64,000 nt of DNA from Amoebophrya sp. A120. Taxonomy: Eukaryota; Protista; Dinoflagellata. The DNA lies in contig CAJINV010000005.1 in NCBI GenBank assembly GCA_905178155.1, positions 3,469,902 through 3,533,901 of the forward strand, written 5' to 3'. The translations under genes were made by a program, and so were the position numbers. Under the pieces are notes generated by a model. It was given only the letters and a program-made list of their open reading frames with translations. It was not told the DNA's origin and did no database searches. Positions 1 through 61,200 of the stretch are shown one piece after another. Positions within the stretch are counted from its first letter, which is position 1. Each line of letters begins with the position of its first letter.

Positions 1-73
1 CTTTCTCGGCCTTTCGGCTCTTTCTCGGCCTTTCGGCTCTTTCTCGGCTTTCTCGGCCTTTCGGCTTTCTCGG
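1..73. repeat. Short tandem repeat, 19-bp unit CTTTCTCGGCCTTTCGGCT (about 4 imperfect copies, truncated by the window edge)
   Basis: Read directly. Probably intronic, downstream of the CAG|GTTATG donor at 130 on the minus strand. Confidence 0.85.
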
Positions 74-130
74 TTTCGCGGGCCCTCGCTTTCCTGATTC
101 TCGTTGATCGACACACTGTGGCGACATAAC

Positions 131-815
131 CTGCCGACTTGTAATTACATTGTGTATCCGCCACTAGTCTGGGCAACAGCGCGGTCTGCACACTGCTTAA
201 CGCTGCTGTGCTCGCTTTCAACACTTCTGCATCTTCCTTCTCCCGGTCCGTCAAATTTTTTTCCAAGCTTCGGATAACTTCCTGCATTTTGACAAACTGC
301 TTTTTGTATTTCCGTTTTCTTTTGTTTTCCTCCTTTTCCAAAACTCTTCTCTCCGCCTGGATCCGACGCTCGAAAAGTCTCTTCAAGTCCGTGTCTGCCG
401 TGAGCGGATCTTCATGGTGGTAAAAAGCGGGAGGTTCTTGTTGAGAGCGATGAGACACGTCTTGCTGTGGCGAGCCTCGGATATTTGAAGCTGTTTTACT
501 GTTACTGCTTGTCGGCTGCGGTCCCGCTCCGGTAGCATCATCGTTTTCCTCTTTGTTCATCTTCCCTCCTGCTCGCAGCTCTTCTAGCAGCGCGTTCAAA
601 TCCGCTCGGAGTTCGGCGTTTTCGCGCTGCAGTTCCTCCATGTCATTTGTGACACCGGGCGCGGAGATCGAATCGACGTCGTCGGCAAGCACGGGGAGCT
701 TGCCGATTGTGTTTGCCTGTTGAGACGATGATTCAGTCTGCCCAGTCGCTGCGGCTGCACTACCGGGTGGCGGCCGGCTCCGGCCACGACGAATACGCTC
801 AGCGAATTGCTTCAT
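131..815 (-). CDS. 5' part of a hypothetical coiled-coil protein; the gene continues off the window start
   Basis: Stop-free frame from ATG 815 (MKQFAERIRRG...MEELQRENAELRADLNALLEEL...RRVLEKEENKRKRKYKKQF). It is missing from the ORF track because there is no stop inside the window. Probable donor at 130. Confidence 0.7.
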
Positions 816-1379
816 TATATTTTTGGAGCTCTTGTGCAGCTAGCTTCTACACATTTATTCCGACGTAATAAGATTGCCATTTGAGCTGCAAGAACTGCTC
901 ACAATGATCTACACAAGATGAACCAGCATGGCGGATCTTCTCACTGAAATTCAACTCCTCAAGAACGACAGTCGCTAAAATCTCTTCTACAAGTAAAATA
1001 TTGTCCACAGACGTGCTCCCGGAAAAATTTTGCACGACTTGCATTTTGTTGCACGGAAGACCTGTACTATTGTTCTTGCCTCTACTCTCGGTATCGAACG
1101 ACGGTGACGGAAGAGACAGAAGTAGATGAGGAGACACGACAAAATGATGTGCGGCGGATAGCAGGCACACAATTCCTCGCCCATTAGCTTGAAACTGCAG
1201 TGCAGCCAGTGGCCAAAAGACTGCATCTGTTGCAGCTGCGCAGAAGTACTACAACTGCCATATTTACATGTTGTGTCGCTGTGTCGTGATATTATGCTTT
1301 TTTGCTTCGCGTCTCTTGCGGCGTCAATGTAGTTTATCACATGAATCACAGAGAGTACTACGTGAAGCTGCCTCGCGCA

Positions 1380-4300
1380 TCATTTCAAAACAACCGCCAA
1401 CCTTCCGGGAGCGGCCATTTCCAAGGCGGTCGGCCGTGTATTCGGCATGACCTCCGCCACGCCGTGAAACAAATCCCTACACTTATTGCCGAACACCAGA
1501 GCATCGCCGGACTTAACCGTGACCAGCAACTGCCGGCCTGAAGGGCCGCCCGCTCCAATTGCTCCGCCCGCTTTGCTCGCCGCTAGTTTCGACGAGGACG
1601 TCGGCGTATTTGTTCCCTGCTGGTCTAGCGACTGGGTTAATGTGTAGGAGATCTTCACCGAGTCGCCGATGTTGATGAGCACAACGGGCACGTCCGCCGT
1701 GTCCACGATTTCCTCCTGCCGTACATCCACCGTCGCTTCGGCACCGTGGAATTCCGCCCAACAAACGTCGGGGGAGAAGTTCGGAAGTTGCTCTGTAGTA
1801 GTTGTTATGCATTGCAAAAGCACCCCACTGCACTAGTATAGATTGCATCACAAATTTTGGCAAGAGGGGAAGTGGAATTTGTAATGCTGCTTTCCCTATA
1901 GGAAAAACATTTGCCACGCACGACATTTGCAATTAGTACGAGTGCGATACTTTTGCACAGGATAGTTGTCTTGCTGATGCTTTTGGTCGTACTCACAGCA
2001 GACGTACTCGTGTCTTTCTTTCCCGGAGTAGTGGACGAGGCTGCTGCCAGTAGAGCCGCGGTATTTTTCTGCTTTTTTTTGCTATTTTTCTCGGCGTTTT
2101 TTGGCGAAGGTGCTACAGGGTCTTTCTGTTTGAGCAGCACAAGATCGTCCACCCGCTCTTCTTCTGACCCACTTAGAGTTTCTGCGTAGGGGACGAACCG
2201 GTCGACGATTTTGGGGATCGCGTTATTCGCCTCCTTGACCGCGTGCTTAAACCACTTTTCCAACAACCCCTTCGAAATGTCCCGAATTTCGTCCCCCGCT
2301 TCCCACCGGTTGAGCCGGAAATTGAAGACGAAGCTACCGTATGAAATGTAAAAGTGTCTGGGTCCTCTGGAAGAATGCAACTTGTCATGCTAAATCTGAA
2401 GCATGCAAAAATTTGTGTTGCATGATTACCAAAAGGTGTCCAGTTTTGACCAAGTCGGGAGGGAGTTTCTCATGCAGGATAGGCATGAGAGAGATCGCGC
2501 AGAATCTGTCATGCTAGGTCCTGCATTCCGGACCTCATGGGTCATGGAAAAGCTGCATGACAAATCGCGCATTTTTCCAGACCCAGACATTTTTGCATTT
2601 GATATACCGAGACTCATGCGACAAACCTTCGCGGTCTTGGTCTTCAGGAACTTCTTGTTAATATCGCTCGTTGTTGTATCAGCTTGATGTTGTTGTGCTT
2701 GTTTGTCAGTTGATGTTGTCGTGGTGGTCTTTGAAGAAGAACTACAGGCTGTCGTACTGACGTTGCTGACCTGTTCCACGAAAAACCCGCCGTTGTTTCG
2801 TTGTGCGTTGCAAGCATCGGACTTCGCAGCTAAATAGTCGATTATCTGCTGTTGCTCGTTGATCGGAATCAAGTCGTGCAAATGGATAAAACTCTCCGCC
2901 AATCTGGCCGACGCCGTGAAGTTCGCCTTAAAAATTTTGTTGTTATTACGCTCGAGTTTTGATGCTGTTGACTCGGAGTGGTGGTCCAGCAGGTTTTGGT
3001 ACAGCTTTTGGTCCGATTTATTTTCTGCACTCGTGGTGGTCGCAGCTGCTTTGCTGGCGCTGTTATTTTCCGCTTTTGTCACAGCGTGGTCTGCACCACT
3101 CGAGGCCGGTCGCTCCTCTCGGTAAATGCCGCCGGTTTTTAGGTCAAATCGCAGATCATGTCTGGCTTCGAACTGCTGCGGCAGGCCCTGCGCCGGCCAC
3201 TTCACCGGGAGCAACGCTTTTTGCAGCGTTTTCAGAGTGTCTCGCGGTATGTCCCAGAACTTGTGGTCGCCAGACATTTTGCAGGGGACCGCGAGCTTCC
3301 GCGGGGTTTCCAGCCAGAAGATGTAGTCGGAGCTGTTTTCTTCCAAGTGAATGTCCTCTGCATCGTCTAAATTGTCTTCCGCCGTTCCTGCGCTGCCTGG
3401 CTCCTGCTCACCTCCATCTGCATAATTCGCCCCGCTACTACTTTGGTCGTTCATCTTCACTTTCCGTATCCCAAGCAGTTCCTGCTTTCTCCTCACCTTG
3501 TAGCTTTCGTTATCCTCAATGGACACTAGATCGACGCAACCGAGGATGCACCCGCTCGGGTAGCCGAGGCCGGATTCTGAAGGAAAAAGTGGGAGTTTCG
3601 GGTAGTTTCCGTACAAATTTTTGTAGTAGTCCTCCATTTGCGACACCGTTTCGTCCTCCACGTCCTTCATCGCGGCGTGAATCCACAATCTCCCGCGGTT
3701 GAAATGCTTATTTTTCCCGTCACTGTTCCACCCCCGCCCTTCCGCGCGCTTGAACCCGGCGACAATCAGCGACGCCCAGGGTTGGTGCAGCGAGAGACAC
3801 TTCCCTTCGTCCAGCGCGTCCGGAAAGAGCGGCTTGGGGGCCGGGAAGTCCTGCTGTGCTTTCGTACCATTTCTACTACCTGGGTTGTCCTGTTGATCGA
3901 CGTCTTCCTCTCTACTGCCGGCAGGATTGTCGTTTCTATCTTGGTGGTTGCTGTTTTTATCTCCAAACAGCGCCGCCTGATTCAGCGCGTCGTCGAATTC
4001 TCTGTCCTCATATCTTGGTCGATAAGCTGCGGTAGAGGAACTGGAGCCGCCTTGCTGCTCTTGCCCTCTACTTTTACTGCCTGTTGCAGCGGGCCCGCCT
4101 GGAGAAGACGACTTGACAACAATATCCTTCAACTCATCCGAGTACTGTGGCCCCCCGGCAGACGAAGAAGTGGATGGGTTTTTATTATTGTTCCGCGCGT
4201 TATCGCGCAAACTTTTCTGCAACGATTCGTACAGGTCCTTTGCGGGACCGACCAAAGCGGGCACGGAGGCCCCGTGCACCTTCTCGTAGTCGATTTGCTT

Positions 4301-6569
4301 GTTGTTTCGGCCCAGCAAATCCGTGCTGTCGAGAAGCAATTTCGAGTCCACGTCGATAAACTGCTCCAATTTACTCGCGTTGTCGGATTCCAACTGCTTC
4401 CCATCCGACGACTCCACGATCGTCCGGCCAAAGAAATCAACCGTGAGGTGGATTTTCCGCTTTTCCAGCTCCCTCTGCTTCCGGAAAATTTTCTCTTGCT
4501 TCTTCGCCTGCTCACGTGCGGACTGGGACAGCCAGGGGTTCTGCGCTTCCAAATACCAATCAGTAGACTCGTCGAACACTTTGGTTCTCTTCTGCGATTC
4601 TCTATCGAACTGCACCAATTTCTTCGCTTTTTCCACGGCTTTCTGCAGGGAAGCGATCTCCTCATCCGTTTTGTCAAATGCGATTTTGTCCAGATCGTCG
4701 AAGATCAGCTCGTTGCCGCAAAAAAGGCAGGGTCCGTAGCCCTCCTCTTTGCAGTTAATCTTCCCGCAGTGCAGACAGTTGGACAAAACGCCGTGCTTCA
4801 TGCCCTGGCAAAGACAAATGCGCCGGTTCTCTTGCTGCTTCTTTGAAGCTTTGGTGTGGGAGCCGGAGGTAGAAGAACTAGTACCGGTGGCGGGGGCGCC
4901 TGTGAAGGAGGTGGTGAGGGAATGTTTGTAATACTGCTTGAGCTAGGTCTGGAACTAGATCTAGAAGTATGAGGGAACTGGAGCAGCGTACATTCATCGT
5001 GTTTATTGCTTAGCCAATTTAAAGAGCCTGCGAATCTTTGATGTTTCTTTATGTTTTATCCCGTATCAGACTGAAAACTACTCGAGAGCGGGACTGAGAT
5101 CCTAGGTCATCGTCTCCACGCAAAGTTTGTCTTGCAGAAACTGCAAGACAACTTAATACCCGGAAAGACGTACCAGAGACGGCCTCTCTTTCACAGTGTC
5201 TGTTGTAACTTTGTGTTGCAGACGATGCAAGACACTTACAACGGGCATGCTGGATATGCGTCAGAGGCTCCTTTCGTACGTGTTTTCAGCTCCTAGCTAC
5301 GCATCACAGGTTTTCTCCGTCATGCAGAGCAAACCTGTGATGCTGTTCCTCCAAGAAAGTTACACTTACACAGTTTTTTCCTTGCATAGCACATTCATCG
5401 TGTTTATTCTTGCGTAGCCAATTTAAAGAGCCTGCGGATCTTTGATGTTTATGTTTTATCCCGTTTCAGACTGAAAACTACTCGAGAGCGGGACTGAGAT
5501 CCTAGGTCATCGTCCCCAAGCAAAGTTTGTCCTGCAGAAACTGCAAGACAACTTAATACCCGGAAAGACGTACCAGAGACGGCCTCTCTTTCACAGTGTC
5601 TGTTGTCATCATGCGGGAAATTATTATTATAAACAAGCGTAATACTACAACTAGTGGGTGCTTACTACGTACAATTCTACATCAGCACTCTAGACCGCAA
5701 AAGACGCACAGGGCATCTACTTTGTTAATATGCCCATGCAAAATACAAACCACCAAAATTATAGAAGTACCAGTCGCCAGCGCTGTAGCCTGCGAGCTGC
5801 AGAAGAAGTTCTGGCTCGCCCGCTCCTGCCGCAGTTTCTCCATTCTTTCCTTCTCCTGCTTCAAGGCAAATTCGTGTTTTTGCCGTGCCTATCCTGTGCA
5901 AAAGTATCGTACTCGTAGTAAACGCAGTTATGCATTACAAATCTAGTTGGTTAGGTAAATCCGCATTACACCTCTAATTTGTAATTATGCTGAGCCAATT
6001 TGTATTGCGATTTGTACTAGTACGATACTTTTGCAGTGCATAGTGCCGTCATTCCCTTTAATTTCGGGAAGTTCGCCTCCATCTCTTTTGTGTGCTGTTT
6101 CGCGGCGTGCTCCTGTAGAAGTTCAATAGGCGAGAAGAGTTTTTGTACCACTACCACGGAGCGTTTGAGTTTGTATTCTGATTCTGACTGTGTGATCATG
6201 ATTCTCATCATGCAGCCATCACAGGCCGTCGAGCGAGGTTTCAATTTACTCCTGGATGTCATGAAGGTCGTCATCTGTGTAGTGTTGTAGATTGTAAACA
6301 CAGAGTGACTACGACGACGAGCGCGAAAATTCATTTCTTACCTGGATCACTTGCGCCTCGAATTTTTTGTGCACCAGATTTTGACAGAAGGTGTAAGCCT
6401 CTCGGTCTTCGACACCAAAACTGACCAAAAACTGCTGCAGGTCGTTGTTCTCCTTTTCCAGCACCATCGTGACCACCTCGTCGCCACAATCTCCCACCAT
6501 ACGCATCAGCTCCTCTTTCGCCCATTTCAAGACGGGAGGTGGCAGGGGCTGTTTGCTCGGGTCGGTCAT
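1380..6569 (-). CDS. TRIP4: TRIP4/ASC-1 homologue (PWI-like N-terminus, zf-C2HC5, ASCH) fused to a C-terminal AlkB-like 2OG-Fe(II) dioxygenase fold, ~1165 aa, 6 exons
   Basis: Exons 6569-6342, 6112-6043, 5884-5771, 4899-2605, 2334-1965, 1800-1380 join in frame (3498 nt). Zinc finger CLCQGMKHGVLSNCLHCGKINCKEEGYGPCLFCG; ASCH CLSLHQPWASLIVAGFKRAEGRGW...RGRLWIHAA...YPSGCILGCVDL; AlkB-like PDVCWAEF...PVVLINIGDS...SGDALVFG...LFHGV...PGRLAVVLK. GT-AG introns at 6113-6341 and 4900-5770, plus three introners. Confidence 0.88.
1806..1964. mobile_element. Introner E1 (TIR family A, TATNNNNTGCAAAAG), 159 bp
   Basis: TAT...ATA ends, direct repeat GTTGT at 1801-1805 and 1965-1969. Removal gives ...SISKTTTTEQLPNF in frame. 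Confidence 0.88.
2340..2604. mobile_element. Introner E2 (TIR family B, TATCAAATGYAAAARTGTCTGGGTCTGGAA), 265 bp
   Basis: Direct repeat TACCG at 2335-2339 and 2605-2609. Removal gives RMSLGSFVFNF. Near-identical to E4 in the reverse orientation. Confidence 0.93.
4988..5606. repeat. Intronic direct duplication (~218 bp; 4988-5206 and 5389-5606) flanking a half introner (5204-5388)
   Basis: Two near-identical copies of ACATTCATCGTGTTTATT...CACAGTGTCTGTTGT. The spacer ends in TACACTTACACAGTTTTTTCCTTGCATA, matching the right TIR of E5. Confidence 0.9.
5890..6042. mobile_element. Introner E3 (TIR family A), 153 bp
   Basis: TIR TGCAAAAGTATCGTACT, direct repeat GTGCC at 5885-5889 and 6043-6047. Removal gives KGMTARQKHEF; can be read as a GC-AG intron. 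Confidence 0.92.
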
Positions 6570-8143
6570 TTTTTTCGTGGTTTGTAAACGTCTCCGGTTG
6601 ATGTTGTTCTGATTGTTTTATCTGGCTGGAAAGGAAATGACAGAAGCCCGAGGACAAAAATTAGCGAGGAAAATATTCAACGAGAGGAGCAATTCGGTAA
6701 GTCGTAAGTGGCTAATTGTGAACAAAATCAAAGGAGCAATTCTTTCATAGCAACCAATGGTAATTGAAATTGTGAGCAGAGCGACGAATATCTTCCTAAA
6801 ATGCTATAATAGAAATGAAGAAAGATACACACCAAAAACGAAACTTTTACTTCCTACTTGAGCACTATGTATGTAAAAACTTCACAAATTTCAGAAGAAA
6901 CGATTGCGCCATGAACGAAGGGACTGAGATGAAATTGGATCGAAAAAATCATTGAGCTCGGATGCTGTCTTGAATTCTTCAGAACTTTGTCTTTGAGTGA
7001 GGCGACCCGGCACACTACATCTTCCTTGCAGAAGTTCCTGAGATCTTCACACTTGGAGCATAAGCAATTCATCTTGCTTGTTTCTTGGCCGTGCATTGTG
7101 GGATGCGGAACATGCTACATTCCCTATGAGAAGTACTCACGGCTGCGCTGCTAGGAGCGCATCAAATATCCACTTCTGCCTTCGCGGAAGCGTCAATCCT
7201 AGGCTAGAAGCACAAGAAAGTGGTGAAAAGAAATCAAATTATTCGCGGAAACGGAAACTGTTGTCCTGCTTATTTTCATTCTACATGGGCATCTTGTTGC
7301 ATGACTTTGTTGCCGTGTCGAAGTAGAGTCCTCTCATTGGGGAAGTGATGTGTTCGCGAAGATAGATTAGTACTGTTTACGTAAGTGGAGAACTGAAACG
7401 ACCGGAAATTGCGAAACGTTGTTAACAGCAGGAGCGTGGTTGTAATGGTATTTTCGAACATACGAAGAATTGGACTTCACTGTAATTAAAAAAAGGCACT
7501 CGGGTGAAAAACAGGTTAGCTTGGAGGTTTGGTGAACAATTTTGTGGAAGTTCCAAAAGCGGTAATAAGGGGTATCAGTAACAGGGTACGCAGCTTGAGT
7601 TTTCCTAGCTGATTTGTCAGCGGGCAGGGTCGGTCTGGAAGAACTAGATTAGTTCGTGTTGAAGAAGCAAGCAGGGTGGATAAAAAGTTGGTTAAAAAAA
7701 GGTAAAAAGGATTCTTCATCTCGCTTTCGTGTCGGAGGTGCGTGTCGGTGGAAAAATGATACGTATACACAGTTGCTGTAAAGAGGTTAAAAACGTAAAA
7801 ATCAGGGCGAAATAAACGAGGCTCGACGCCGACGCGGCCGTGATTGAAACGGCGAAAATAAATATGTGGCATTTGCAAAGCGCAGTTCAAACGCTGAAAC
7901 GTGTGAGATCTTTCCGAATCGTATTGTAAATAAATCTGTACGTTGAGTATGTTCGATACATTTAGGTGAGCAATAGCGAGGTAGTGAAACTGATAGAACC
8001 CCTAATTTTATTTCTTCATTTGATGCTCGAAGATCGAGACCGCGGTACATTGGTATGTAAAACTTCTTGCGCTTGACACCTCTACTATAAAGATCAAGCG
8101 TCTTGTTGGTCTTCCTCTTCAAAAGCAGCAGCAACGTGCTTTT

Positions 8144-11100
8144 TCATTTCGCCTGTTCTGTCGGAGAAGATTTGGTCGAGGTCACAGCCAAGCCGGCTTG
8201 CTGCAGTTTCTATCAAATGCAAAAATGTCTGGGTCTGGAAGAATGCGCGATTTGTCATGCAGCTTTTCCATGACCCATGAGGTCTGGAATGCAGGACCTA
8301 GCATGGCAGATTGTGCGCGATCTTTCTCATGCCTATCCTGCATGAGAAACTGCCTCCCGACTTGGTCAAAACTGGACGACTTGCTTTGGTAATCATGCAA
8401 CACAGATTTTTGAATGCTTCAGATTTAGCACGACAAGTTGCATTCTTCCAGACCCAGACACTTTTACATTTGATAGTTTCCACTCCTGGTCCAAAGGTTT
8501 CTCTTGCAAGACGAGCTCGAACGGCCAGCTCACCCCGATCTCCACCATCTTTCCCCTCGACAGAGCGTATGCAAGAAAAAAACTGTGTAAGTGTAACTCT
8601 GTGATGCAGAACGGGCAAAAGAGTTACATCTGTCATGCGTCACAGCCATGAAGTCCTCTTTTCATGTGTGTTTTTCCTTATAAGCCGCACATGACAGGTT
8701 TTCTCTGTCATGTAGAGCAAATTTCTGATGCTGTCAGCCAAAGAAAGATACACTTACACAGTTTTTTTCTTGCATAGAGCGGACGACCCAACTAGTACAT
8801 CGGAGCTGTGGTGATCTCCGCTGTCAAAACCGCCAGGATCCCCCTTGTAATACACCAAGTGAATGGTTTTTCTGGTGGACCCGAGCGACAAGCCGCCGAC
8901 GGTGCTGGAGACAAAAATCTCGTCGCCGCCGTACCGAGCGTTCCTCTGCAGCTCCTTTATCACACAGAAAAAAGCAGGCAAGTCACATTTGTATATGCAA
9001 AAGCAAACTAACAGACTAATCTGTCATGGGCGACCCCACAGCATGCATGGCGCTTAGGACATGCAAGGCAATTTTTTGTTTTTTTGTCTGTTTATTTTTG
9101 CATTACAAATATGACCTGCCTGCTTTTTTCTCTGGGTATCCTTCTCAAATTCCATACAGTCGTCGAAATCCCACAAGTTGTTCACGATAAACTCAATTTC
9201 GCTGTCCTGCACGTAGGGGTGGCGCCCGCGGATGGAAATCTGTAGTTCCCAAGATTTTGTTGTGATGCATGTATGACAACGGCGCATATGTGTGACGCAC
9301 ACGATGTGTTGACCTCATAGAAAATGCAAGAGACAGTGCGTAGAAATTCATACTCACACGGTGCTGGTCCTTGTGCTGCGTGAACAAACTGCAAATGCAA
9401 TACCTGTAACGGATCGTATTCGATTTCTTCATCCTGTACGTCTGACAAGTCGACAAAACCGCTGCTGTTCTTGTGGTCTGTGCAGTTGTTTACAAAATTC
9501 GCCTCATTCTGTTCGCCTTTCTCCTCTTCCGCTGCGACAAAAATGGCGTCAGCTTTGCTGTCTTCGTTTTGCGCCGTCTTGGTTCTGCTTACCTGCAAGA
9601 TGTTCCTTTCAAGATTGTTACAATCGTGCTTGTCGTCGTAGTCGTTTTCGTTAACCCAAAAGGTATAATCAAAATGAGCGGTTTCATTTTGCGTGCGTTT
9701 GCCAAACAACTGGAAAAAACACCACCAGCAAATCGATAATGGTCTACTTGCAATTATATTGTAATTCCACAAGAACACGCATGAAGAATCAAAGTAAGAG
9801 CACGAGTACGTTCTCCGCACGGCTCGTCGGTGAGATCACGTCATCACCCTCGGCGTGGTTCGCTTCTGGCGTCTCTCCCTCTAGTCCCGCAGCAAGAACT
9901 ACATCCTCCTCGCAAAGATTGTCGCCGCCTTCCACAGACTCCGGCTTGGGGGTTGGAAATTCGTCCTCCTGCTCCTCTTCCTCATCCTCCACGACTACAG
10001 GCTCATCTTGAGCCTCAGCATCCGCAGGTGGATCATCTTGTTCGACGTCCTCACTTGCTGCTGCACGAGCAAGCTCTTCTTCTCCCTCTTCCGCAGCAGC
10101 CGAGGCAGTCGCTTCTTTCACTGGATCCCACGGCAACGGTTTTAGCAATCGCTTCATTCCCGGGAAATACGCATAACCGGACTTCAATTGCGGGAAATTC
10201 GTTGAAGGAGTTGATGTCGACGTTGCTGCAATGGTCTTTGAACTACAAATGGAAGATACAGAAGGAGCTCCCAAGCGCGTTGATGTCGTGAAAGCTGTCG
10301 TCTGCGCCAGAGGGACAACATGCGATGCTGTAGATGGTGAAGACTTTTTGACACCTGTCAACGCAATCACTTCAAGCGGACTTTTCAACGACACACCATC
10401 CGCGACGTCTACTGGAGATTTCGAAGCAGTCACTGCGTCGCGAGCCGTGGTCCGGAGCTGGATATTTTATTGAAGTTATTTGACTTTCTTTGTTACACGC
10501 AGCTCCACCTACACGAGAGTCTCTAAGTCGCTGCATCACAATCAAAATTGTTGCCTTTTCATCCTCCAATCGGAACAATTATCTTCAATCAACAGATTCA
10601 TGAGTACCTTTTCCAAAAAGTTTGTCTGCAGCAACTCCGACGACCTAGCTGATGAGGTATTTTTCGAGGCGGCCGCGCCGGCGCTTGTACAACTGGAACT
10701 GGTGCCCGCTGTCACGACTACGCTACTAGACAAACTACCCATGGGCGCCGCCCAGGGCAACGCGCTCCGGAGTTTTTGCGCTGGATTCGCCTTCGTGCTC
10801 TCAAACACGTAGTTGTGTAAATTCTGGTGCAGCAACACCTTTGCCTGTTTAGTCGAACTCCTACTGCACTCGGCGGTAGTGGGGAGGTCGGGGGTTGAAA
10901 ATGGTGCGAGAACTTGTTCCGCAGCTTTGTCCTCACCGTCTCCATTCACAGAAGATTCCGGCGGAGCAACAGCATCAAGATGTTTCGACGCAGTAGAAGA
11001 AGAGTCCCCCACTTCAACAGGAAGAGCGACATCCTCTGTCTTTACCTGTGTGGAAGATGTTGTTCCTGGAGAAAAATGCAGCGACGACCTTACTGGCTGT

Positions 11101-11258
11101 GCGGTCGCTATGTAGATGGAATTCCACGGGTTGTTTTTTGCTCCGGGCGGCGGCAAGAGGAGCTCTCGTGGCAAAACCCGGCCGGACAGGAGTGGCGACG
11201 GCTGCACCTGGATCCGCGTCGGGGAGACCGCGATCGGAGTTGTGACACCGGAAAACAT
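8144..11258 (-). CDS. Hypothetical protein, ~612 aa, about 8 exons, low-complexity N-terminal half and globular-looking C-terminus
   Basis: Exons 11258-10608, 10457-9810, 9709-9593, 9433-9404, 9206-9139, 8952-8777, 8562-8476, 8205-8144 join in frame (1839 nt) using four GT-AG introns and three introners. The start codon and the 9434-9592 intron are uncertain. Confidence 0.7.
8211..8475. mobile_element. Introner E4 (TIR family B), 265 bp
   Basis: Direct repeat GTTTC at 8206-8210 and 8476-8480. Removal gives DQEWKLQQAG. Reverse-complement near-copy of E2. Confidence 0.93.
8568..8776. mobile_element. Introner E5 (28-bp TIR TATGCAAGAAAAAAACTGTGTAAGTGTA), 209 bp
   Basis: Direct repeat GAGCG at 8563-8567 and 8777-8781. 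Removal gives VGSSALSRGKM. Confidence 0.92.
8958..9138. mobile_element. Introner E5b (long imperfect TIR AGAAAAAAGCAGGCARGTCAYATTTGTA), 181 bp
   Basis: Direct repeat TCCTT at 8953-8957 and 9139-9143; right end is GTA rather than ATA. Removal gives MEFEKELQRN; readable as GA-AG. Confidence 0.87.
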
Positions 11259-12007
11259 GGCTTAATTTCTTCTTCGGACCACAACACGTTTTTATCCGAA
11301 CGCACCGACGGCCGGAGAGGCCACCACGCAATACAGATGACCGGTTGCGCGGTAGATCCGAGCAGTTGTCGGTTATACACCTTTTATCTTCGTGCGAACG
11401 TGCAGCACCGTGTGCTGAGTAAATGGGTGTTCGATGCAGACGCAGGGTCTTCACACTCACACTACCCAAGCAATCTCGATTGGGCAAATGCACAGCTAGT
11501 CCATCTCACAAGAATAACCACAGACTCGCTCAACGCTCAACGGATACACCAAATACATCGCTCCTTGCGTTTTTCCTTACAAATGGGATGCGGAAAGAAC
11601 GAGGAAGAATCTGAAGACCGAGTGAGAACAGGAAAGTGCTCATGGGCGAAAATACGCCTTTCCACATGACTGCGGGCTTTCATGTGGAACCAGCACTCCC
11701 GTTGCTACTAGTTCTTATTTTCAAAACTGTGTACAACCGCAAAACAACAAAAAGATCAGAATCACCTGGCTGTCGTGGTCGGCCGGCTGCATCTACTGCA
11801 ACTGAAGTAAGTTGATACACCATGATCATAACATATACTTAAGAACTTGCTTCATACTTTCTTCCACACACATATAACATTGCTTCGTGTTTTGTTCGGC
11901 TTGGGTACAAGTCATGTAGTATACTAATTTTCAAAATACTATACTGCTCTATGCAGCTCGCTTGCTAGAAGTTCAAGCTCTCCCCTCATTTGAGCGGCGG
12001 CGGGCCG

Positions 12008-15912: not shown

Positions 15913-17357
15913 TTATGAGTTACTGGTACTAGTAGCGACCGGTAGCCCGCTCTTTTCATATTCCAGCCAACTTCCATCGAAAAGCGACACTGTCGGTTTT
16001 GCCTTCCCCTCATGCGCGCACACCACCTCCGCGGCCAAGGCAACAATACAGGCTGTCATGCCGGAGCCGCAGGTAACGACGAAGGGCTTCTCTACATCGA
16101 CATTCTTTGTGTTAAAAATTTTTTTCAATTCTCCCGGCGATTTCAATTTCGTTCGCTTTGTCGGTGCAGATGATATCATCTTCAGACCGTCCTTCGTAGA
16201 AGTTGTAGTTGCTTCCTCGTGGTCCCTCACGTCCAACAACTCCAGAAACGGCACATTTGTTGAATTCGGAATGTGTCCACTCCGCATTCCGGCCCTCGGC
16301 TCCGCCGCTTCTCCCGTGAACCGCCCAGCCGGACGGGCGTCCAGGATCGTCGTGGTATCTTGTAGAGAGGTTCTTTCCTGCTCGTCAGTAGTGCAGCTGG
16401 TGATTTCCTGAATATCCGCCAGGGATGCGACGGATTTGTTTTCCTTTTCGGCGTTCGTTTGTTCCGCAGATGAGGTTGTTCCTCCAACAGTTGTGTACTC
16501 CTCCACTGGTTTCGCGACTGTGGTTCCAGTTGTTCTGGCAGTTGTACCAGCTACACTCCCTTCAGCAACGTCACCCCCGGCCTCCACCCACTCCGGCAAG
16601 CCACCGTCCAACACAAAAGTGTTCCTATGCCCAAAGAACCGCAGCATGTACCAAGCCCGCGCCGCCGAAAACAAGCCGTGCCGGTCGTAACAGACGATCG
16701 AGTCTTCCGTGCTGATGTTCAAAGACCGCATGTAGTTTTCGAACACGTCTCTACTCGGCATCATGTGGGGTAGTTCGCTTTTCTCGTCCGCGCACTCGTC
16801 CAGGTCGAGAAAGGCGGAATTTGGTACTATTCGGTTGAAGTTTTGGTAAAGCGACTTCGCCGACTCGGCCGCGAACGGGCAAGCGAAGGGGGAGTTGGGC
16901 AAATACCACGTCGCATCGACGAAGACGAGCGTGGGGGTATCAAATGTAAAAATGTCTGGGTCTGGAAGATTGCCAGGTTTGTCATGCACATTTTGCATGA
17001 CTCCTGATGTCTGTGATGCATGCCCTAGCATCACAGATTTTGTGAGGGCTTCCTGATGCCTATACCGCATGACAAATGCTCTTTCCGTGTAGCAAAACTT
17101 GGACAGGACTCTCTTTGCTGCTCATGCAATACAGATTTTTTTAGGATCCAAAATCAGCATGACAAGTTGAATCCTTCCAGACCCAGACACTTTTACAGTT
17201 GATAGGGGGCATCGCGGGTTGATGTAGTTCCAGCAGGAGACGAGGCAGTCGCAGACGCGGCCATGGAAGCCGCTAACTTTTCCTTTGCCCATTGCACAGA
17301 CACTAACGGTGAGGACCCGGGTGGGGGAATGAGCGAGGACGTCATTTTTTTCATCAT
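15913..17357 (-). CDS. MPST: 3-mercaptopyruvate sulfurtransferase (tandem rhodanese), 390 aa
   Basis: PLVSVQWAKEKL...LVFVDATWYLP, LPHMMPS, SAARAWYMLRFFGH..VLDGGLPEW, ILDARPAGRFTG..AEPRAGMRSGHIP, active-site loop CGSGMTAC, LFDGSWLEY. One introner; exons 17357-17205 and 16932-15913. Confidence 0.95.
16938..17204. mobile_element. Introner E6 (TIR family B, diverged interior), 267 bp
   Basis: Direct repeat GGGGG at 16933-16937 and 17205-17209. Removal gives STRDAPTLVFVD. Confidence 0.93.
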
Positions 17358-18248
17358 CGTGATTCTTGGCCTGCGTAGATGAGCGAACTACGAGAAATGA
17401 AGTAAAAGTAAGCCGAGCACGAGCATGGTCATTGTTCACACTTGGGGCGGCGCGGGAGGATAGGTCTGACAAAACACTTGATAACGGATGGAACTACAGA
17501 AAGATTGTACAAATTGGTACCTACTGATCAGGATCGCATTCCCCATCTACATCTCAACAAGTTCATCATAATGCCAATCAGATCGAGGCTGCGTATGCAT
17601 ATCGTAATCGGCTTTGGGTTCGACGTGCTCGAGACGTTAAGACATTGATATCGAACTCGTTGTCTAGTCGAAGTCAATAAGTGTGAAGGCGCCAGCACCG
17701 GTGCTGCGCATTCTTGGCATTGTTCCTTCAGCTTGCTGGGGCTGGCGGTGGGCACCAACGTCAATATATCCTTGTTGATATTGGAATTTGGCTGTTTGCG
17801 TTGTAGAATCCTTGCATCTACGACCGCATTCATCGAGACATTTACTTTCCCGTCTCCGTTGCAATGATTCCATCGAGATTCATCTACTTCTTTCAAACAT
17901 CTAAGCTGCTCGTCACGCTGACGTAATTTGAAATTGTAATTGAATACCCTTTTGATGTCAAAATAAAACCTCCATGTCCATACTGTAACTATCGTACGTC
18001 TAATAGTCCACTACCACTATCCAACATCATTCTTCGCAGTTCTGTAAAAGAAGTTGATACTTTAAGTGTACTTTTTGAGGGACCTTATCAAGAAAAAAAC
18101 CGATCCATCCGTCCCAGGTAAAAAGATTTGCTGATTCATTTGTGATTTATGATTTCTGTTGCTTAAATTTCAAAGGAAACACCCTGACCTGATAATGATA
18201 AAATTTTGGTGAATACTAAATACCCCAGTTGCCGTGCATCCCGCCTAC

Positions 18249-24200: not shown

Positions 24201-27200
24201 TGCAGTAGTTGTTCTCGTTCTGGGCGATATGGTTCGTTGTTGTAACACAGGACTTCTGCTGTGTTGTGATTTCGGACTTTTAGACTTGTCACTGTCCAAT
24301 TTACTGAACAACCGGTCCTGAAAAATCTGCCTGCGTGACCGGTTCTCCACCTGTACTAGTTGCTCCTGTTCTCCCTTTTGTCCGATGATTCTTATCGAGG
24401 AATCGTCATCCTTTGTTTCCGAAAAAACGGACCTAGAACCCCCGACATCAAAAATTTCCTCCAGGGAAGGCTGCTCCAGGTGATGTCTTGACGCAGCAGA
24501 GTCGACATGATGTTCTTGGCGCGCAGATGAAGTCGAGCCAAGTCTAGGCGCGTTCAGCTGCGGAATGATCGGAGCTGCGAGGTCATGAGGACGAGTACAA
24601 GCACCCGTCGAGCCAGAAACCATGTAGGGGTCCTCTTCTTGGTCTACAGAATCTCTGAGCGTGCGTCGCAGTGGTCCTCCTGCGGAGGTGGTTGCAGAGC
24701 CGCTGGAAGATGAAGAAGGTAACCACGCGCCGCCGGTTGTGCTACTAGACCCCGACCCAGAAAAAGCCTTTAACACCCGTTCCTGCATGCGCGGCTCCAC
24801 ATTCGCCAGTGCATTGTGTTGTTGTTGAAGCGATGTGGCGGACGCGGCCCGGGACATGCCGTGAGGATTGGTGGTCGTCGTATTTGCGGCTGGGGCAGCT
24901 CCAGATGCAGATGCTGTTCCTGCTAGTGGTGGCGAAGATATTGTTGACCCTAGTATTCGCGAGTGCAGCTGCGGCGACACGGACTTCGCTTGTTTCGGTG
25001 AGCTCTGTTTGATACTCGGAAAGAACCCCGCCGACGGTACTATGGAGGCAGCTGTCGCAGGAATCATTACTTCTCCTCTCTCAGCTTCCACGGCTGAAAA
25101 GCTGGACATGGGTGGGCTACTGGGGCTGGCCCTCGGCGGCGACGCTCTCGACGGCGACGAGAGCTGCGGTGCGAGAAGCCCTCGTCCCGGGGAGCTCGAG
25201 ACAATCGGCATCACAAAGGTGTGTCCGTTGATAGTTTTCGCTAACCCCCGAGTCGTGTGGGAGGGGGAGGACGTGTTGGCCGGGATGCGCTGCAGCGGAG
25301 AAATGGACTTGGACTTCTTGTTGTTTTCTTCTGTAGTTCTTTCGCCCGTGGGGGTCTTCGGAGCTGTTGGTGCTGCCTCACCATCATCTTGCTTTTTGTT
25401 CTTTGTTGTGACGAGCAACTGTACCTCCTCCGGCGAAGAAGACGAGCCTGCAGGGCCAGGATCTCTATGCGACTGCTCGTCGGCGGAAGTCGAGGTAAAG
25501 TCCTCGGTGTGCTGCTGGAGCTGCACTTTTCCTGCTGATGTTGTCGGTGCTTTTGCATCTATTTCTGCGAAAGGCTTAGTCGTGCTGTCATCAACGACAA
25601 TATCGAGCACGACGGCCTTGCTGCTACCGAGTACGCGTCGCTTTTTCGTTGCTGGATCGGAAGCTACACCGAACTGGATCGTGCCTGGGCGCGCGGGTGG
25701 TGTTGCAACTACAAGGCCGCCAGAGATGTTGGCCACGACAGTAGGCACAGCACCCTGTTGCGTTGATGGTTGACCGATCTCTAGTACCGCGACATTGTCC
25801 TCCTGCGCTTCGGTTTCGTCTTCCACCCCCGCATCTACTTCACCCGGCGGCGTTTCCGGCTGTACAATCATCGCCTGATTCATTGCTGGATTCAGACCTG
25901 CTCCACTGGTGGGCGCCACCGGCGGTCTTCCGAGATAACCACCACTAGTTTGCTGCTGTGCCCCGCCTGCTGGTGCCACCCCGCGTGGGGTAATCAGAAA
26001 CTCCTGCGCGCTGTTCCCCTCCTGCAAGTAGTGGGTGCTCTCCTCATTCTGGTGCACCGGGGAGAGGCTACCAAAAGACGCGGTGTCCTGTTGGGGCTGA
26101 TGTTCCTCTTGTTGTAATATTTGCTCTCCAGCGCGAGGACCTCCTTCGGTGTGGTCCTGCTCACTGGTAATTGTAGCGGCGGTGGCGTTGAACGGCTGGA
26201 ACGTGGTTGGGGGTTGAGTTGTCGCCGCATCTGCTGCTCTCGCTATGTTCAGTTGCAGAAGCCCTGAAGTCGTTGAGTCGGTTCTGGCCCCATTGCCCAA
26301 AACCGGCTCCGGACTGGCTAGCAGCGCTGTCCGCAGCTTCTCGTGCGGATCTGCGTCCATTGGCGGAGACTCCTGCGTGTCCGTCCCGAAGGTCACCTCG
26401 TCACCCGGTGATGCTTGCAGAATGCCGTCCGCACTGGGCGTTCGGCAGAACTTCTTGCCGAAGGAAGGCGGCGAAGGGTGCGGTTGGTTCGGGTTGGAGG
26501 ACGAGATAAATCCGCGGGCGAAATCCGGCGAAGCCGTGGAGAAGTTTGTGAGGACAGGAACAGATGCGGGCCGCTGTTCTCCCTGCACAGCATCTCCGAC
26601 CACGGGTGGAACAACCTCTGGAGCTGTGGTGCCGCTGCTGGGTAGTTCTTGCGGAGGTCCTCCACCTCCTTGAGCAATGTTTATTGCGCTTGTTGTTTCA
26701 GCAACCTCAATCTCACTGGCTTGTAGTTCTTGCGGACCAAATGAAACTTTACCGGCCAATGTGTCTTTCTTGTCTCTAGTTTCGACATTGGCTTTGGGGG
26801 ATTTTGCATTTCCATTTGATGTTAGTACATCTCGCGTCTGCTGCTTCGGAGAAACGCTGTTGCCGGAAGATCTGTTCTTGATCCAAGAGGGCAGGGGGTG
26901 CTTTGTGAGCTGCGTCGGTGACGTAGCTGCACTCGTGGCGTTTCTCCCAACTGCAGGTGGATTCTCTCCTGGGCAGCTATCATGAGAAAAATAAAACCCA
27001 TCCCACCCACATCCATTTTTTGCATGACAAACACAAGATTTTTAACCTTTACCTCCTTATGTATGTTTTGCATGACAAATTGGATGTGGATGGGTGTTTT
27101 TTCCTGGATAGCAGCCTCCCCGTGGCGACTTCGACTTCTTCTTCTGCCGGCTGCTCGTACTACCGCCTGCCAACAGCGATCCAATACTCGTCGACGCTGC

Positions 27201-55900: not shown

Positions 55901-57371
55901 GCGGGCATCGTGGTGGCGGGCGCATCACCAGCCGCAGTATTCCTGCTGGTTCGCGGTGTTTTGCTTCTACTTCTCACGTCACTGCTTCTACCTCCTGCAG
56001 TTGCTCCTGTCGCGCCACTGTTTCGACCTACTGCCGCCGCTCCGGACGAGGATGAGGAGGAAGAGGAGGATGATCCACTTCTTTGCGGCGGCGGGGGCTG
56101 CTGTTGGACCGCATGTAGTTGACCATGAGCTCCTCCAGCGCCGGGTGCTGCAGCAGCGGTTCCACCCACCGCCCCTCCGGTCATCCCCGAATCTACACGG
56201 CTTTTCACATGCCTGTAGTGACCACTCGACGCCCCGCCCCCGCCGCCGCAGCTGACCGACCGGGCCCTTGTGTGAAACTGCTGGTGGTTCAGCGCGTTTT
56301 GGATCCGGGCGAGGGACGGCTTGTTGTTTTCCTTGTTGGAGATGCTGGTCGCGGTAATTTTACCAGGAGTAGGGTCGCAGCTAGTGCCGCTTATTTCTCC
56401 GACCGGTGTTGATGTTGTGCTGGCAGGTCCTGCAGCTACTGACGCCAACTCCCCCGGCTTCACGTTCTTCAGTGTTTGCTGGCTCTCGGGCAAGGAAAGG
56501 ACAGCCTCCTCGGCTCCTGCCGGATCCGTATGCACTGCAAAAGTATCGCACTCGTACGAAAAGTAAATCTATATGCGTCGCAATTATGCATCACAAATCT
56601 GGCCGCCGCGTTCTGCATGAATATAAACGACATACTTCAATTTTGTTCTTGAGAAGGTTTGTCATGCGATTTGTACGTAGTACAACACTCTTGCATTGCA
56701 TACTCCGGTTGCAATAAAGATGTTTCTCCACCCGCCTGCTCACCACGCGCCACCATTCCGGAACCAGGGGCCCACGTGGCGCGCTGCGCCGGAAGGTTGT
56801 GCTCAGCATCGGACGCTTGCTGAGGTTGGACCTATTTTTTCATGGTTTCAGAACGAGACTAGATCAGTTTGAAATAAAATCGACTGTGCACCATCCGAAG
56901 TTCGAGTTCTAATGTTGCTAATGGTTGCCGTGCAGTATAGGTCCTGAAGAGATGAACTTCTTTAGCATGAGTTGGGTTGCATTCCATTAGATCCAAAATT
57001 TTGGTTTTCACCCACCATGCACGTACCTTCCTGAGCTGGGGATGCTTCCGTTTCAACAAAGCCAGCCGGCTGGTTGTCGGTGTCTTGCTCACTGGTAATA
57101 TTTCGACCGGTCTTGGTGGTGCGGTAGGAGCTTCGGGTGGCGACGTGGCAGTTGTGCCAACTACGGGAGCAGCTGGTGCCCCAGGAACTACAGTGTCCTG
57201 CTCTTGATGTAGTTGCGATATTAAGAAAGCCGCTCCAGCATCATCTCCTTCTCCGGCCGGTGGTCTGCTGCTGGCATTGTTCGCGTTCCAGTGAACCAGA
57301 ACTGGACCTGCGTCGAGAAGCGGCGCTGGGTGGTGGTCCATCCCGGCCACAACCGCGTCCACGATTTCCAT
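52979..57371 (-). CDS. Zinc finger C2HC (zf-C2HC_2, ZC2HC1/FAM164-like motif) protein, ~1176 aa, 5 exons
   Basis: Exons 57371-57027, 56831-56703, 56523-54652, 54452-53879, 53589-52979 join in frame (3531 nt). RIACPHCNRNFNKEAAARHIPRC. Confidence 0.82.
56529..56702. mobile_element. Introner E9 (TIR family A), 174 bp
   Basis: TATGCACTGCAAAAGT...ACTCTTGCATTGCATA; direct repeat ATCCG/CTCCG (4/5 match). Removal gives LLQP(D/E)PAGA. Confidence 0.88.
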
Positions 57372-58278: not shown

Positions 58279-61200
58279 TCAAACTCTGTCCTCGACTGGC
58301 GACACCGGAGGGAGCGCTGCGCGGTAATCGTAGTCTTCATCGATTGCAGCTTTTTGCTGCTGTTGCAGTACGAATTCTGCAGTCCGATTCGAGGGATCGG
58401 CATCTTGATCGTGTTCCTGCTCCCCCGATAGCTGTGCAACTGGTTCGCGGCTACTGGCCCCACCTGACTGGTGCCCCCGCAACACAAATTCCTTCGCGTT
58501 TTTCAGCGCCAGCTTTCCCATCGGGTGCACCGTGTACAGTAACTGCCCGACGTGGCACATCTCGTGGTAGATCTGCAAGTCCACGCTCAGCCCACACTTC
58601 GCCATCAACTGCGCTAACTCGACGTGAATGTCCCGGAGCACCTCCGTTTCGCCGGACTGGATCAGGATCTCGATGGGCTTATTAACGACCTGCTTTTTTC
58701 GTCCGACTTCATCTTGTGGCGAAGAAATTGTACTACCAGTCGTAGCAGTACTACTAGCGGGGGGACGTTCTTGTGGTCTTCTATCCGACAAGAAGTTCTG
58801 AAACGCGTACACACTGGACAGCACTGGGTCCTCGAAAGCCCTGTTGCAACTTCTGGCAATCCCGGAAGCAAGCATTTTCACCGTTTCCGGGTGAATCATG
58901 TCAGTTTGCCGGTTGGACACAAAACTCGGCGTTTTCTTTTCGTTCGCACTTTGGTCGGCCCAGGGGGAGAACAGAATCGCTTTGCCCGGGAGGGCGAGTT
59001 TGTTGTTCTGCTTTTTCATCATGATCTTCGGAGCTGCACCGATTTTTGTGCTCGCCGGTTCATCTTTGCACTGCTGAACAAGCGTCAACGGGGCGATTGT
59101 TGCGTTGATGTTGGGAGAAGCATTTTCGTTCGCGCTGTTCTCTATGTCAATGAGACCACCGACGTCTCCGTCACCGTCTAAGAGAATGCCGTCCTCTGGT
59201 ACAACCAGATCCTCTCGTGGAGAGCAGAACTCGAGGGATTTCTGGTCATCCTCATCTTCCGAAAAGAAATCCTTCTCGTCCTGCTCCAACAATCCCAACT
59301 TGAGCAATAACTGCACGCACAGCTGCCCGCCGGCGGAATCTCCGACCAAAATGATGTTTTCGCAGGGCACAGATAACTCCTCTATCCTGATTAAAAACGT
59401 CCCCACACCAGAGTCAAGATGGGGATTTTGCAACACAAACCTAGGAGTTTTAGGAGTCACGCATGACAAGTTTCAGTCCGTAAGGTAGTGCAAGTTAGCA
59501 AGGAAAGCCGCATGACAAATCGACCTTCTGATCCTGTTTACAGCATTACAAGTTCCCAAACACGATTGAAAACGCCTGTAATGGGGTTGCGCATCACAAA
59601 CGTTCCTGTCATGGCAAATCTGCATGACAACTCTGGGGTGGGGGCGTTTTTACATTTGATATCCTCGACCAGAAACCTGTAGACCTGCAGCCCATCTTCC
59701 ACCGCACACTCCACATCGAAATCCGGCGGTCTTCTGAAATTCGCCAGGAGCGCCACAAAATCACTGCCGCAATTGCGGACCAACCAGGCCAGCAGCGCGG
59801 TGTTCGCGCTGTCCGCGTCGCAAAACACGAACGCGCCGCCGTGAAAGTAGAGAAAAACCTTCTGCCGCGCGGGGTCGGGGATCACGAGTTTTCCGAGTTC
59901 GAGATTTGAGTAGACTTTTTTCTTATCGAAGTTTTTCTTTTCCGCTTCTTCTTTCGACCAGAGCCAGTAGTGCCGGACGTGGGCTTCGGCGACGGAGGTT
60001 GTTGTCGTTGTACTGATAGGAGGCTTTGACTTTGTAGTAGTACCTTTATTACCAGTTGCAGCTCTTCCCGTCGGGGATCCAGTGCCAGTACCAGTAGCAG
60101 TACTTGGAGACAGTAATTGCCTGATATTATCATCGTCGTTGGTATCAGCGATGGATCCCGACTGGAGTTTCTTCGCGAACGCGATACTGCTCGTAATCCC
60201 GTTATCCGAGACGCTATGAAAGCCTCAGGTTGGAAATCCTCAAAGTGGAAATATTTTGTAATGCAAGAAAACGACTCCCGTTGAATCGCCATTTCTAGTC
60301 GGCGCATGACAAATTTTCCGGGCACTCAAAGCATGTCTGTCATGCTAGGTAGGCAAAGGGGTGCCCTTCTCTCGTGCTAATCAGCAGCCCAATTCTGAAC
60401 CCCTAGCAGGACAATAGTCGGTCTCCATTGCGTCCTCTGCAATACAGTCTTTTTTGCCTTGCATTTCATGCATCACAAATTATTTCCACTTTGAGGATTT
60501 CCATTCTGAGGCTTTCATAGACGCACGGGTGGGCGGACTCCACAAACCCGCACTCCATCCAAAAAGACGCTTTCTTATCAAAAGAAAAAAGTTCGTCACG
60601 ATCACTCATGGGCATTTTTGCAATACAAAATTGTCTGTCATGCGTAAAAATGCATCACAGCCACACTTCATAAGGGATTTCCCTAGTGTTTCTGCAATAC
60701 AAGGAGAAGTTGTGATGCTAAAAAAATTTGTAATGCAAAACCTGCAACTTGGTGACTGTGACAAACTTTTTTCTCTCCATATTTCTGGAGTTTGCTGTAG
60801 TAGGGGAAAAGAAAGCTAGGGAGCGTCATGTCGGTCAGGAAGCGGTAGAGCCGGACGTTCAGTCTGGACAGCGGATCTAGTCGTAACGTTTTCAAGGCCG
60901 TGAACAACAGCCGGAGCAGCAAAACGTGGTAGAACCCGTTCTGCCGGTCCTGCTGGGAGAGTAAAATGTCTACAGGCTCGGGAATGCGGTAGTGGTACAG
61001 TTTCTCCAAGTCAAATTCTTGCTCGAAGGGAAGAGATTCAGGTTGGTCTTCTTTGCTCTTACTTCGGTTTCGCTTCACTTTACTGCTGTTACGCTCGTCT
61101 CCCGCCACAGTCGACCTGTCGTCATTTTTACCAACAGCAAGAGCACCACCAGCATTGTTCTGAGACTGAGGATTTTTACCACGATGGTGATCTTCATCAT

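What the first reader, a model, noticed from the sequence alone, without database searches (positions are those of the whole stretch)
2335..8480. Near-identical introners removed in opposite orientations
Seen: E2 (2340-2604) and E4 (8211-8475) are both 265 bp and near-identical reverse complements, yet both interrupt minus-strand CDSs whose frames need precise removal. E1 and E3 (family A, same gene) likewise carry the TATCCTGTGCAAAAG end at opposite transcript ends. Inference: strand-specific spliceosomal signals (donor, branch point, pyrimidine tract) are not carried in one fixed polarity, so recognition is symmetric. That fits a hairpin-directed or protein-directed mechanism, or DNA-level excision.
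Basis: partly seen in the sequence, partly recalled or inferred. Interest (0 to 1): 0.78.

Follow-up and report, generated by a model that had tools for sequence, protein, structure and literature searches.

The report
Transposon introns removed in either orientation
These are small transposon copies inside genes of what is likely the marine parasite Amoebophrya; they are missing from the transcript assemblies whichever way round they sit, likely because their mirror-image ends look the same both ways, an already described intron type whose cutting machinery is still unknown.

Summary
Observation confirmed. E2 (2340-2604) and the reverse complement of E4 (8211-8475) match at 250 of 262 aligned bases. 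RNA-like contigs skip E1-E4 and three more copies, each exactly as element plus one 5-bp target duplication. DNA-like runs and a second assembly keep the elements, so DNA excision is unlikely. In 146 related loci, 73 of 84 copies have an exact 5-bp duplication. Coding copies of the E2/E4 family split 24:19 by orientation, and only 9 of 70 coding copies allow a GT/GC/GA-AG reading. The elements fit the Amoebophrya A120 introners of Farhat 2021. What stays strange is the precise removal with no splice-site dinucleotide rule. Best reading: RNA-level excision guided by the paired ends (0.6); spliceosome or another enzyme is unresolved. The scan's own notes held nothing on this DNA.

The parts
1801..1969 (.). 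E1: 159-bp family-A element 1806-1964 with 5-bp duplication GTTGT on each side; TATCCTGTGC end at the transcript 5' side
   Evidence: RNA-like joint 1798|1963; registers; scan
2335..2609 (.). E2: 265-bp family-B element 2340-2604 with duplication TACCG; about 36-nt terminal inverted repeats
   Evidence: joint 2334|2605 in X3; alignment; 262 bp in L042
5885..6047 (.). E3: 153-bp family-A element 5890-6042 with duplication GTGCC, opposite orientation to E1; one GC-AG reading is possible
   Evidence: joint 5884|6043
8206..8480 (.). E4: 265-bp family-B element 8211-8475 with duplication GTTTC, opposite orientation to E2
   Evidence: joint 8204|8475 in X3; X6 record 19 length fits its removal
8563..8781 (.). 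E5: 209-bp element 8568-8776, duplication GAGCG
   Evidence: joint 8561|8776
8953..9143 (.). E6: 181-bp element 8958-9138, duplication TCCTT, ends TAT..GTA; one GA-AG reading is possible
   Evidence: joint 8952|9139
16933..17209 (.). E7: 267-bp family-B element 16938-17204, duplication GGGGG, E4 orientation (79% to E4); no GT/GC/GA-AG or AT-AC reading in any register
   Evidence: joint 16932|17205
26973..27115 (.). E12: 133-bp element 26978-27110, duplication GCAGC; removal joins two long minus-strand frames
   Evidence: no RNA laid here
56524..56707 (.). E8: 174-bp family-A-like element 56529-56702 with unequal duplication (ATCCG left, CTCCG right); the mRNA base here would show where the cuts fall
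   Evidence: no RNA laid here
59378..60786 (.). E9 59383-59661, E10 60215-60519, E11 60576-60781, each with a perfect 5-bp duplication; removing all three gives one 1081-codon minus-strand frame (62329-58282)
   Evidence: no RNA laid here
1380..6569 (-). Host gene of E1, E2 and likely E3: TRIP4/ASC-1-like (zf-C2HC5, TRIP4_3rd, ASCH) running on into a 2OG-Fe(II) oxygenase-like domain
   Evidence: Pfam; 1042-codon frame after removing E1 and E2; link across 5770-4899 inferred
8144..11261 (-). Host gene of E4-E6: 638-codon frame after removing three elements and three GT-AG introns; no Pfam hit on its pieces
15913..17387 (-). Host gene of E7: rhodanese-domain protein, 400-codon frame after removal
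6113..6341 (-). Canonical GT-AG intron; three more at 9240-9403, 9593-9809 and 10458-10607, removed in the same contigs as the elements

Best explanation
These are short non-coding transposon copies with inverted ends (TAT..ATA) and 5-bp target duplications that sit in exons in both orientations, and they are likely cut out of the pre-mRNA by machinery that reads the two matching ends, predicted to pair as a hairpin, rather than GT-AG splice sites. Shown: the anatomy, presence in DNA, absence from RNA-like contigs, removal of exactly the element plus one duplication, both orientations at equal frequency, no splice-site rule. Inferred: insertion by a DDE transposase with a 5-nt staggered cut; about 30-36 nt of inverted repeat give the same RNA ends either way, which is why orientation does not matter; the cuts are placed by distance from the stem, one copy of the 5-mer goes with the intron, and the original exon is restored whatever the target was. 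Not known: where in the 5-mer the cuts fall, and whether the catalyst is an altered U1-less spliceosome or a separate nuclease and ligase as proposed for Euglena (I lean 55:45 to the separate pathway).
For: 7 of 7 elements in 1-20000 that have a 5-bp duplication are skipped as element + 5 nt. X3 record 3 (2964 nt) equals 7223-11387 minus E4, E5, E6 and three GT-AG introns exactly; X6 record 19 (2080 nt) equals 7314-10444 minus the same three elements and two GT-AG introns. 73 of 84 family-B-ended copies have a perfect 5-bp duplication and none a perfect 4- or 6-bp one. Removing element + 5 restores a coding frame in 93 of 184 copies against 18-20 for +3, +4, +6 or +7. Orientation among coding copies: 16 E2-like to 17 E4-like; by clustering 24:19 (p 0.54) and family A 7:3 (p 0.34) after dropping two duplicates. 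67 different 5-mers in 70 copies, no position differing from exon composition. Only 9 of 70 allow G[TCA]-AG, 6 of 70 GT/GC-AG. The end-to-end stem is in the predicted fold of 77 of 80 copies.
Against: Direct support for pairing is thin. The ends are no more stable on the transcript strand than on the other (42 vs 35 copies, p 0.35). G-U over A-C mismatches is significant only at positions 21-30 (19 vs 5 copies, p 0.005, one of three bins; whole end p 0.065), and almost none of it comes from family B. The outermost pairs are predicted weak in E2, E6, E9 and E11. An inverted repeat is expected from transposition alone, so it does not show a role in RNA. All RNA evidence is cDNA-derived contigs from one sample (X3, X6); the E2 joint rests on one contig of depth 9.8. 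Orientation and coding calls outside the window rest on frames, not RNA.
Confidence: 0.6

Rival explanations
1. An altered U2 spliceosome reads linear signals inside the inverted repeat (a donor-like N-TAT at the 5' end, a T-tract and branch A in the last 36 nt) with ordinary polarity; the symmetric ends supply them in both orientations and no hairpin is needed.
For: Both orientations present nearly the same ends. All 80 copies share TA at positions 1-2 (required by the scan) and most share G9 and A11-14 across families, so every 3' end has a T-tract. The four canonical introns here start GTA, which N-TA echoes. Most spliceosome parts are reported in Amoebophrya, U1 not found (PMC7789003 section 10). 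The tunicate Fritillaria splices non-GT-AG transposon introns with its spliceosome (PMC11282704 section 6).
Against: No enrichment of G at the position that would make GT, nor of AG at the 3' end, in any register. Polarella introners that use the spliceosome do recruit G or AG from their target. In every register at least one end is free sequence. The branch region would lie inside a predicted stem.
Confidence: 0.27
2. The joints are reverse-transcriptase slippage across a hairpin between short direct repeats, and the elements are not removed in the cell.
For: The anatomy (stable hairpin between short direct repeats) is the one shown to give false introns in cDNA (PMC8240250, passages). All RNA data here are cDNA-derived.
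Against: Keeping E2 puts a stop at 2428; five of the seven skips change the frame or carry in-frame stops. Frame restoration in 93 of 184 copies means many coding genes would be broken; the organism is haploid (recalled for dinoflagellates). Weak-stem copies (E1, E2, E6) are skipped like strong ones.
Confidence: 0.07
3. The elements are cut out of the DNA in some life stage, like ciliate internal eliminated sequences.
For: TA ends, inverted repeats and exact restoration resemble DNA excision. The DNA joint table showed only 15 of 930 rows and contigs drop rare forms, so a rare excised form is not excluded. DNA and RNA runs come from different samples.
Against: DNA-like contigs run unbroken at background depth (about 45x) from exon into the element at E1 (56 nt), E6 (32 nt) and, below the tool's 31-nt bar, E2, E3, E4 and E7 (21-27 nt). 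A second assembly holds E1 and E2 at the same sites. A one-nucleus cell would pass any excision to its offspring (established knowledge).
Confidence: 0.04

Closest known systems
Amoebophrya sp. A120 introner elements (Farhat et al. 2021, PMC7789003; sections 10 and 11, passages and supplement legends read)
   Same: Non-canonical repeated introns with inverted ends and 3-5 nt direct repeats; A120 end motif TAT + 7 nt + AAA fits these ends; 5-bp repeats in the Fig. S19 legend; co-oriented genes; hairpin-guided removal already proposed.
   Different: In the text I searched the paper does not treat element orientation (all 'orientation' hits concern genes; figures not seen). It describes variable repeat lengths, where this sample shows an exact 5 bp, and inverted repeats of 8-20 nt, where these run to 30-36 nt.
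Polarella glacialis and Aureococcus introners (Roy et al. preprint 10.1101/2020.10.14.339549, passages read; Huff 2016 not held, known only through that preprint)
   Same: Transposon copies that make introns in either orientation.
   Different: They keep G[TCA]-AG ends taken from constrained targets and mostly favour one orientation; here the target is free, the ends are non-canonical and there is no bias.
Euglena nonconventional introns (PMC12501133 abstract, passages and discussion; PMC11282704 section 6)
   Same: No GT-AG, inverted ends, slidable direct repeats, MITE origin suggested, unknown machinery, coexist with GT-AG introns. The closest match for how it likely works.
   Different: Their code is a short polar motif (N3CDG / CH'G N5-6 before a purine); these have long TAT..ATA repeats. 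Circular excised RNA is reported there and untested here.
IS3EU / GingerRoot DNA transposons (PMC10045372, passages read)
   Same: TA..TA termini with inverted repeats. An A120 introner family with an integrase-like frame and inverted ends is reported (PMC12130899, passages).
   Different: IS3EU duplications are usually 6 bp, these are 5 bp; no transposase was found here.
Fritillaria borealis non-canonical introns (PMC11282704 section 6; PMC13326754 passages)
   Same: Transposon-derived non-GT-AG introns in bulk.
   Different: They have preferred ends (AG-AC, AG-AT) and an exonic target motif and are removed by an adapted spliceosome; here no end rule appears.

Membership tests
Amoebophrya A120-type introner element | Removed from RNA with non-GT-AG ends | tested here: met
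   7 joints in X3; 5 of 7 have no G[TCA]-AG reading in any register
Amoebophrya A120-type introner element | Inverted repeats at both ends, TAT + 7 nt + run of A | tested here: met
   motif from PMC7789003 section 11
Amoebophrya A120-type introner element | 3-5 nt direct repeats at the borders | tested here: met
   5 bp in 73 of 84 copies
Amoebophrya A120-type introner element | Repeated in families across the genome | tested here: met
Amoebophrya A120-type introner element | Host organism is Amoebophrya | not tested
   Inferred from the end motif, co-oriented genes and mixed intron types; no taxonomic search was run
Non-autonomous TIR DNA transposon (MITE) | Short, inverted ends, fixed-length duplication of variable sequence, both orientations | tested here: met
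Non-autonomous TIR DNA transposon (MITE) | An autonomous partner with the same ends | not testable with these tools
   No whole genome held; the one metagenome scan went to the end motif
IS3EU / GingerRoot | TA..TA termini | tested here: met
   criterion from PMC10045372
IS3EU / GingerRoot | 6-bp target duplication (usual) | tested here: not met
   0 of 84 with a perfect 6-bp, 73 of 84 with 5-bp; not filed as a member
U2 spliceosomal intron | GT/GC(/GA) donor and AG acceptor | tested here: not met
   9 of 70 copies allow it in any register
U2 spliceosomal intron | Lariat with a branch-point A | not testable with these tools
   Only contigs cover the locus; raw-read runs X9-X11 laid 28, 4 and 2 partial reads
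Euglena-type nonconventional intron | N3CDG / CH'G N5-6 end code | tested here: inconclusive
   Cut register unknown; position 4 is C in about 71% but the code was not scored
Euglena-type nonconventional intron | Excised as a circular RNA, pairing required | not testable with these tools
   Only indirect G-U test, weak
Self-splicing or other Rfam RNA | Match to an Rfam model | tested here: not met
   0 matches in 1500-18000 at gathering score

The most novel reading that the evidence does not exclude
This parasite has a second, non-spliceosomal splicing pathway: a transposon eraser that recognises the paired inverted ends of an integrase-type mobile element on RNA, cuts with the same 5-nt stagger as the insertion and rejoins the exon perfectly, for any target sequence and either orientation, which lets the elements spread through coding DNA almost for free.
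Probability: 0.33. Interest if true: 0.85.

Novelty: new member of a known kind. Interest (0 to 1): 0.42.

Why it matters
How Amoebophrya removes its tens of thousands of non-canonical introns has been open since 2021. These data narrow it: the signal must lie in the outer 30-36 nt, needs no splice-site dinucleotide and no orientation, and removal equals element plus one 5-mer. Mirror pairs such as E2/E4 are natural controls (the same mismatches are G-U pairs in E4 and A-C in E2), and copies with unequal duplications such as E8 can fix the cut position from existing RNA reads. If a separate pathway does the cutting, it would be a scarless, sequence-free intron system. The orientation effect alone is expected from inverted repeats and is not new.

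Tried and rejected
Raw RNA runs X9-X11 did not cover the locus, so splicing efficiency by orientation, strand and branch points could not be measured; this blank is no evidence. In one search the DNA joint table was filled by element-to-element joins (915 rows not shown), so absence of an excised DNA form was not read directly. A first strand caller on 105-nt flanks was too weak (8 of 75 calls; 4:4) and was replaced; on the seven RNA-confirmed copies the second method called 6, 4 of them uniquely, and missed E4; its strand calls agree in 35 of 36 same-locus pairs. Searches counted E1 and E2 twice (L042 is the window's own region in another assembly); corrected. A wrong start coordinate was corrected. 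Viral contigs: 0 matches to the end motif. Rfam: none. E8's two possible junctions give Glu or Asp, both open, so the frame cannot fix the cut. IS3EU membership was rejected on duplication length. Huff 2016 was not held. Eight paper searches (and 28 for IS3EU) and word look-ups in PMC7789003 (main text and supplement text), PMC9860276, PMC12130899 (12 of 14 supplement files) and PMC11282704 found no statement on orientation of Amoebophrya elements; figures, subscription papers and bioRxiv supplements were not seen and may hold one.
Full report
Observation. E2 (2340-2604) and the reverse complement of E4 (8211-8475) are identical at 250 of 262 aligned bases with two 3-nt gaps. A third copy, E7 (16938-17204), is 79% like E4 in E4's orientation. 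E1 (1806-1964) and E3 (5890-6042) form a second family and are also reversed relative to each other (score 108 vs 42). Scans found 12 such elements in the window; the strict scan gave 9 against 0-1 in each of 10 simulated sequences.

Hosts. All hosts are on the minus strand. Removing E1 and E2 gives a 1042-codon frame with zf-C2HC5, TRIP4_3rd and ASCH hits and a weak 2OG-Fe(II) hit below Pfam's cut-off. E3 lies in upstream exons that can join this frame through a GT-AG intron (inferred). E4-E6 lie in a 638-codon frame without Pfam hits; E4 is 20 codons from the stop, so its removal matters little for the frame. E7 lies in a rhodanese gene.

RNA. Contigs of X3 skip seven elements and four GT-AG introns. 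One 2964-nt contig equals 7223-11387 minus E4, E5, E6 and three GT-AG introns; an X6 contig of 2080 nt fits the same removals over 7314-10444. The loss of GT-AG introns is my ground for reading these runs as RNA; the tool only guesses it. X3 and X6 are one sample. The E2 joint rests on one X3 contig. Three raw-read RNA runs did not cover the locus. In each case what is skipped is the element plus one copy of a 5-bp duplication. E1, E2, E4, E5 and E7 have no GT/GC/GA-AG or AT-AC reading in any register; E3 allows GC-AG and E6 GA-AG.

DNA. X1 and X2 have even depth and keep three GT-AG introns in one contig, so I read them as DNA. Their contigs run from exon into the elements at background depth: 56 nt into E1 and 32 nt into E6, and 21-27 nt into E2, E3, E4 and E7, which is under the tool's 31-nt bar for bridging. 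The joint table was cut (15 of 930 rows), so a rare excised form is not excluded. Locus L042, the same region in an assembly 99.8% identical, holds E1 and E2 at the same sites, E2 being 3 nt shorter.

Related copies. One scan for the family-B end gave 146 loci. Of 84 copies with both ends, 73 have a perfect 5-bp duplication, 7 an imperfect one and 4 are mispaired ends of two elements; none has a perfect 4- or 6-bp repeat. Of 240 elements of any family, 184 had enough flank. Removing element + 5 restored a coding frame in 93, against 18, 19, 20 and 19 for +3, +4, +6 and +7. Among 69 family-B copies, 33 were called coding: 16 in E2's orientation (one is E2 itself) and 17 in E4's. Clustering of the confident set gave 24:19 and 7:3 for the two families after removing duplicates, and 6:2, 5:2, 4:0 and 1:1 for smaller ones. 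These calls rest on frames, not RNA.

What orientation shows. The ends are inverted repeats of about 30-36 nt. The transcript 5' ends of E2 and E4 agree at 33 of 36 positions, and across 80 copies the 5' end and the mirrored 3' end do not differ at any position from 4 to 36 (smallest p 0.2). So the machinery sees nearly the same RNA ends either way. Orientation independence places the signal in the ends and rules out the interior; it does not by itself exclude a polar spliceosome. Several Polarella classes and the Aureococcus element make spliceosomal introns in both orientations (10.1101/2020.10.14.339549, passages).

What stays unusual. The target is free: 67 different 5-mers in 70 copies, no position departing from exon composition (p 0.06-0.62 on 72 copies before removing duplicates), and 9 of 70 copies with any G[TCA]-AG reading. 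There is no filter for insertions that create canonical sites, unlike Polarella. An end-to-end stem is predicted in 77 of 80 copies, but the transcript strand pairs no better than the other (42 vs 35, p 0.35), and an excess of G-U over A-C mismatches appears only at positions 21-30 (19 vs 5 copies, p 0.005; whole end p 0.065), mainly outside family B. Support for pairing is therefore weak.

Mechanism. Best reading (0.6): MITE-like elements inserted by a transposase with a 5-nt stagger and removed from pre-mRNA by machinery that reads the two ends, likely as a stem, with cuts set by distance. Rivals: an altered spliceosome reading linear motifs in the repeat (0.27); reverse-transcriptase slippage, whose anatomy this matches (PMC8240250) but which cannot explain the many frames that need removal (0.07); DNA excision (0.04).

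Known systems. The elements meet every tested feature of the Amoebophrya A120 introners, including the TAT + 7 + AAA end (PMC7789003); the organism is inferred from these features. That paper already proposes hairpin-guided, unusual splicing. Euglena nonconventional introns are the closest working analogue. TA..TA ends recall IS3EU, but the duplication is 5 bp, not 6, so they are not filed there. I found no statement on element orientation in Amoebophrya in the texts searched; figures and subscription papers were not seen. The scan's own notes held no look-alike DNA and one note on another genome that did not bear on this.

Verdict. Real, RNA-supported, a new member of a known kind. The orientation point is a modest addition; the absence of any end rule and the testable cut position are the useful parts. 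Interest 0.42.

Noticed in passing
window 4942-1380 (minus): A TRIP4/ASC-1-like protein (zf-C2HC5, TRIP4_3rd, ASCH) continues in one frame into a 2OG-Fe(II) oxygenase-like domain (E 1e-5, below Pfam's cut-off). In humans the ASC-1 complex works with the AlkB enzyme ALKBH3 (recalled), so this may be a fusion of partners.
   Followed up: partly
window 4990-5606: A 220-nt direct duplication (94%) and a decayed E5-family end (5302-5389) inside the likely long intron of the TRIP4-like gene; no RNA joint was listed for this intron.
   Followed up: partly
window 13881-14330: A degenerate family-B-like end near 13881 and other element-like pieces between two minus-strand frames, without a matching partner end or 5-bp duplication; possibly nested or decayed.
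   Followed up: partly
window 2363-2365: Three bases in E2's left repeat are absent in the other assembly (L042), which also differs at three exon bases and one single-base gap: strain difference or assembly slip.
   Followed up: yes
window 18252-29171 (minus): A 2930-codon frame with no Pfam hit joins a 704-codon frame once E12 is removed.
   Followed up: partly
window 44368-44813: A weak candidate element (16 of 20 end matches, duplication with two mismatches) that the stricter scan did not keep.
   Followed up: no
window 35001-36000, 41001-42000, 48001-50000: Islands of 68-72% G+C in a window of about 52%, with long frames on both strands.
   Followed up: no
E2, E4, E7 interiors; L036 571-1051: Interiors carry many CATG-centred short motifs in both directions, as transposase binding sites often do (recalled); L036 holds a longer 481-bp copy with family-B ends and a perfect duplication.
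   Followed up: no
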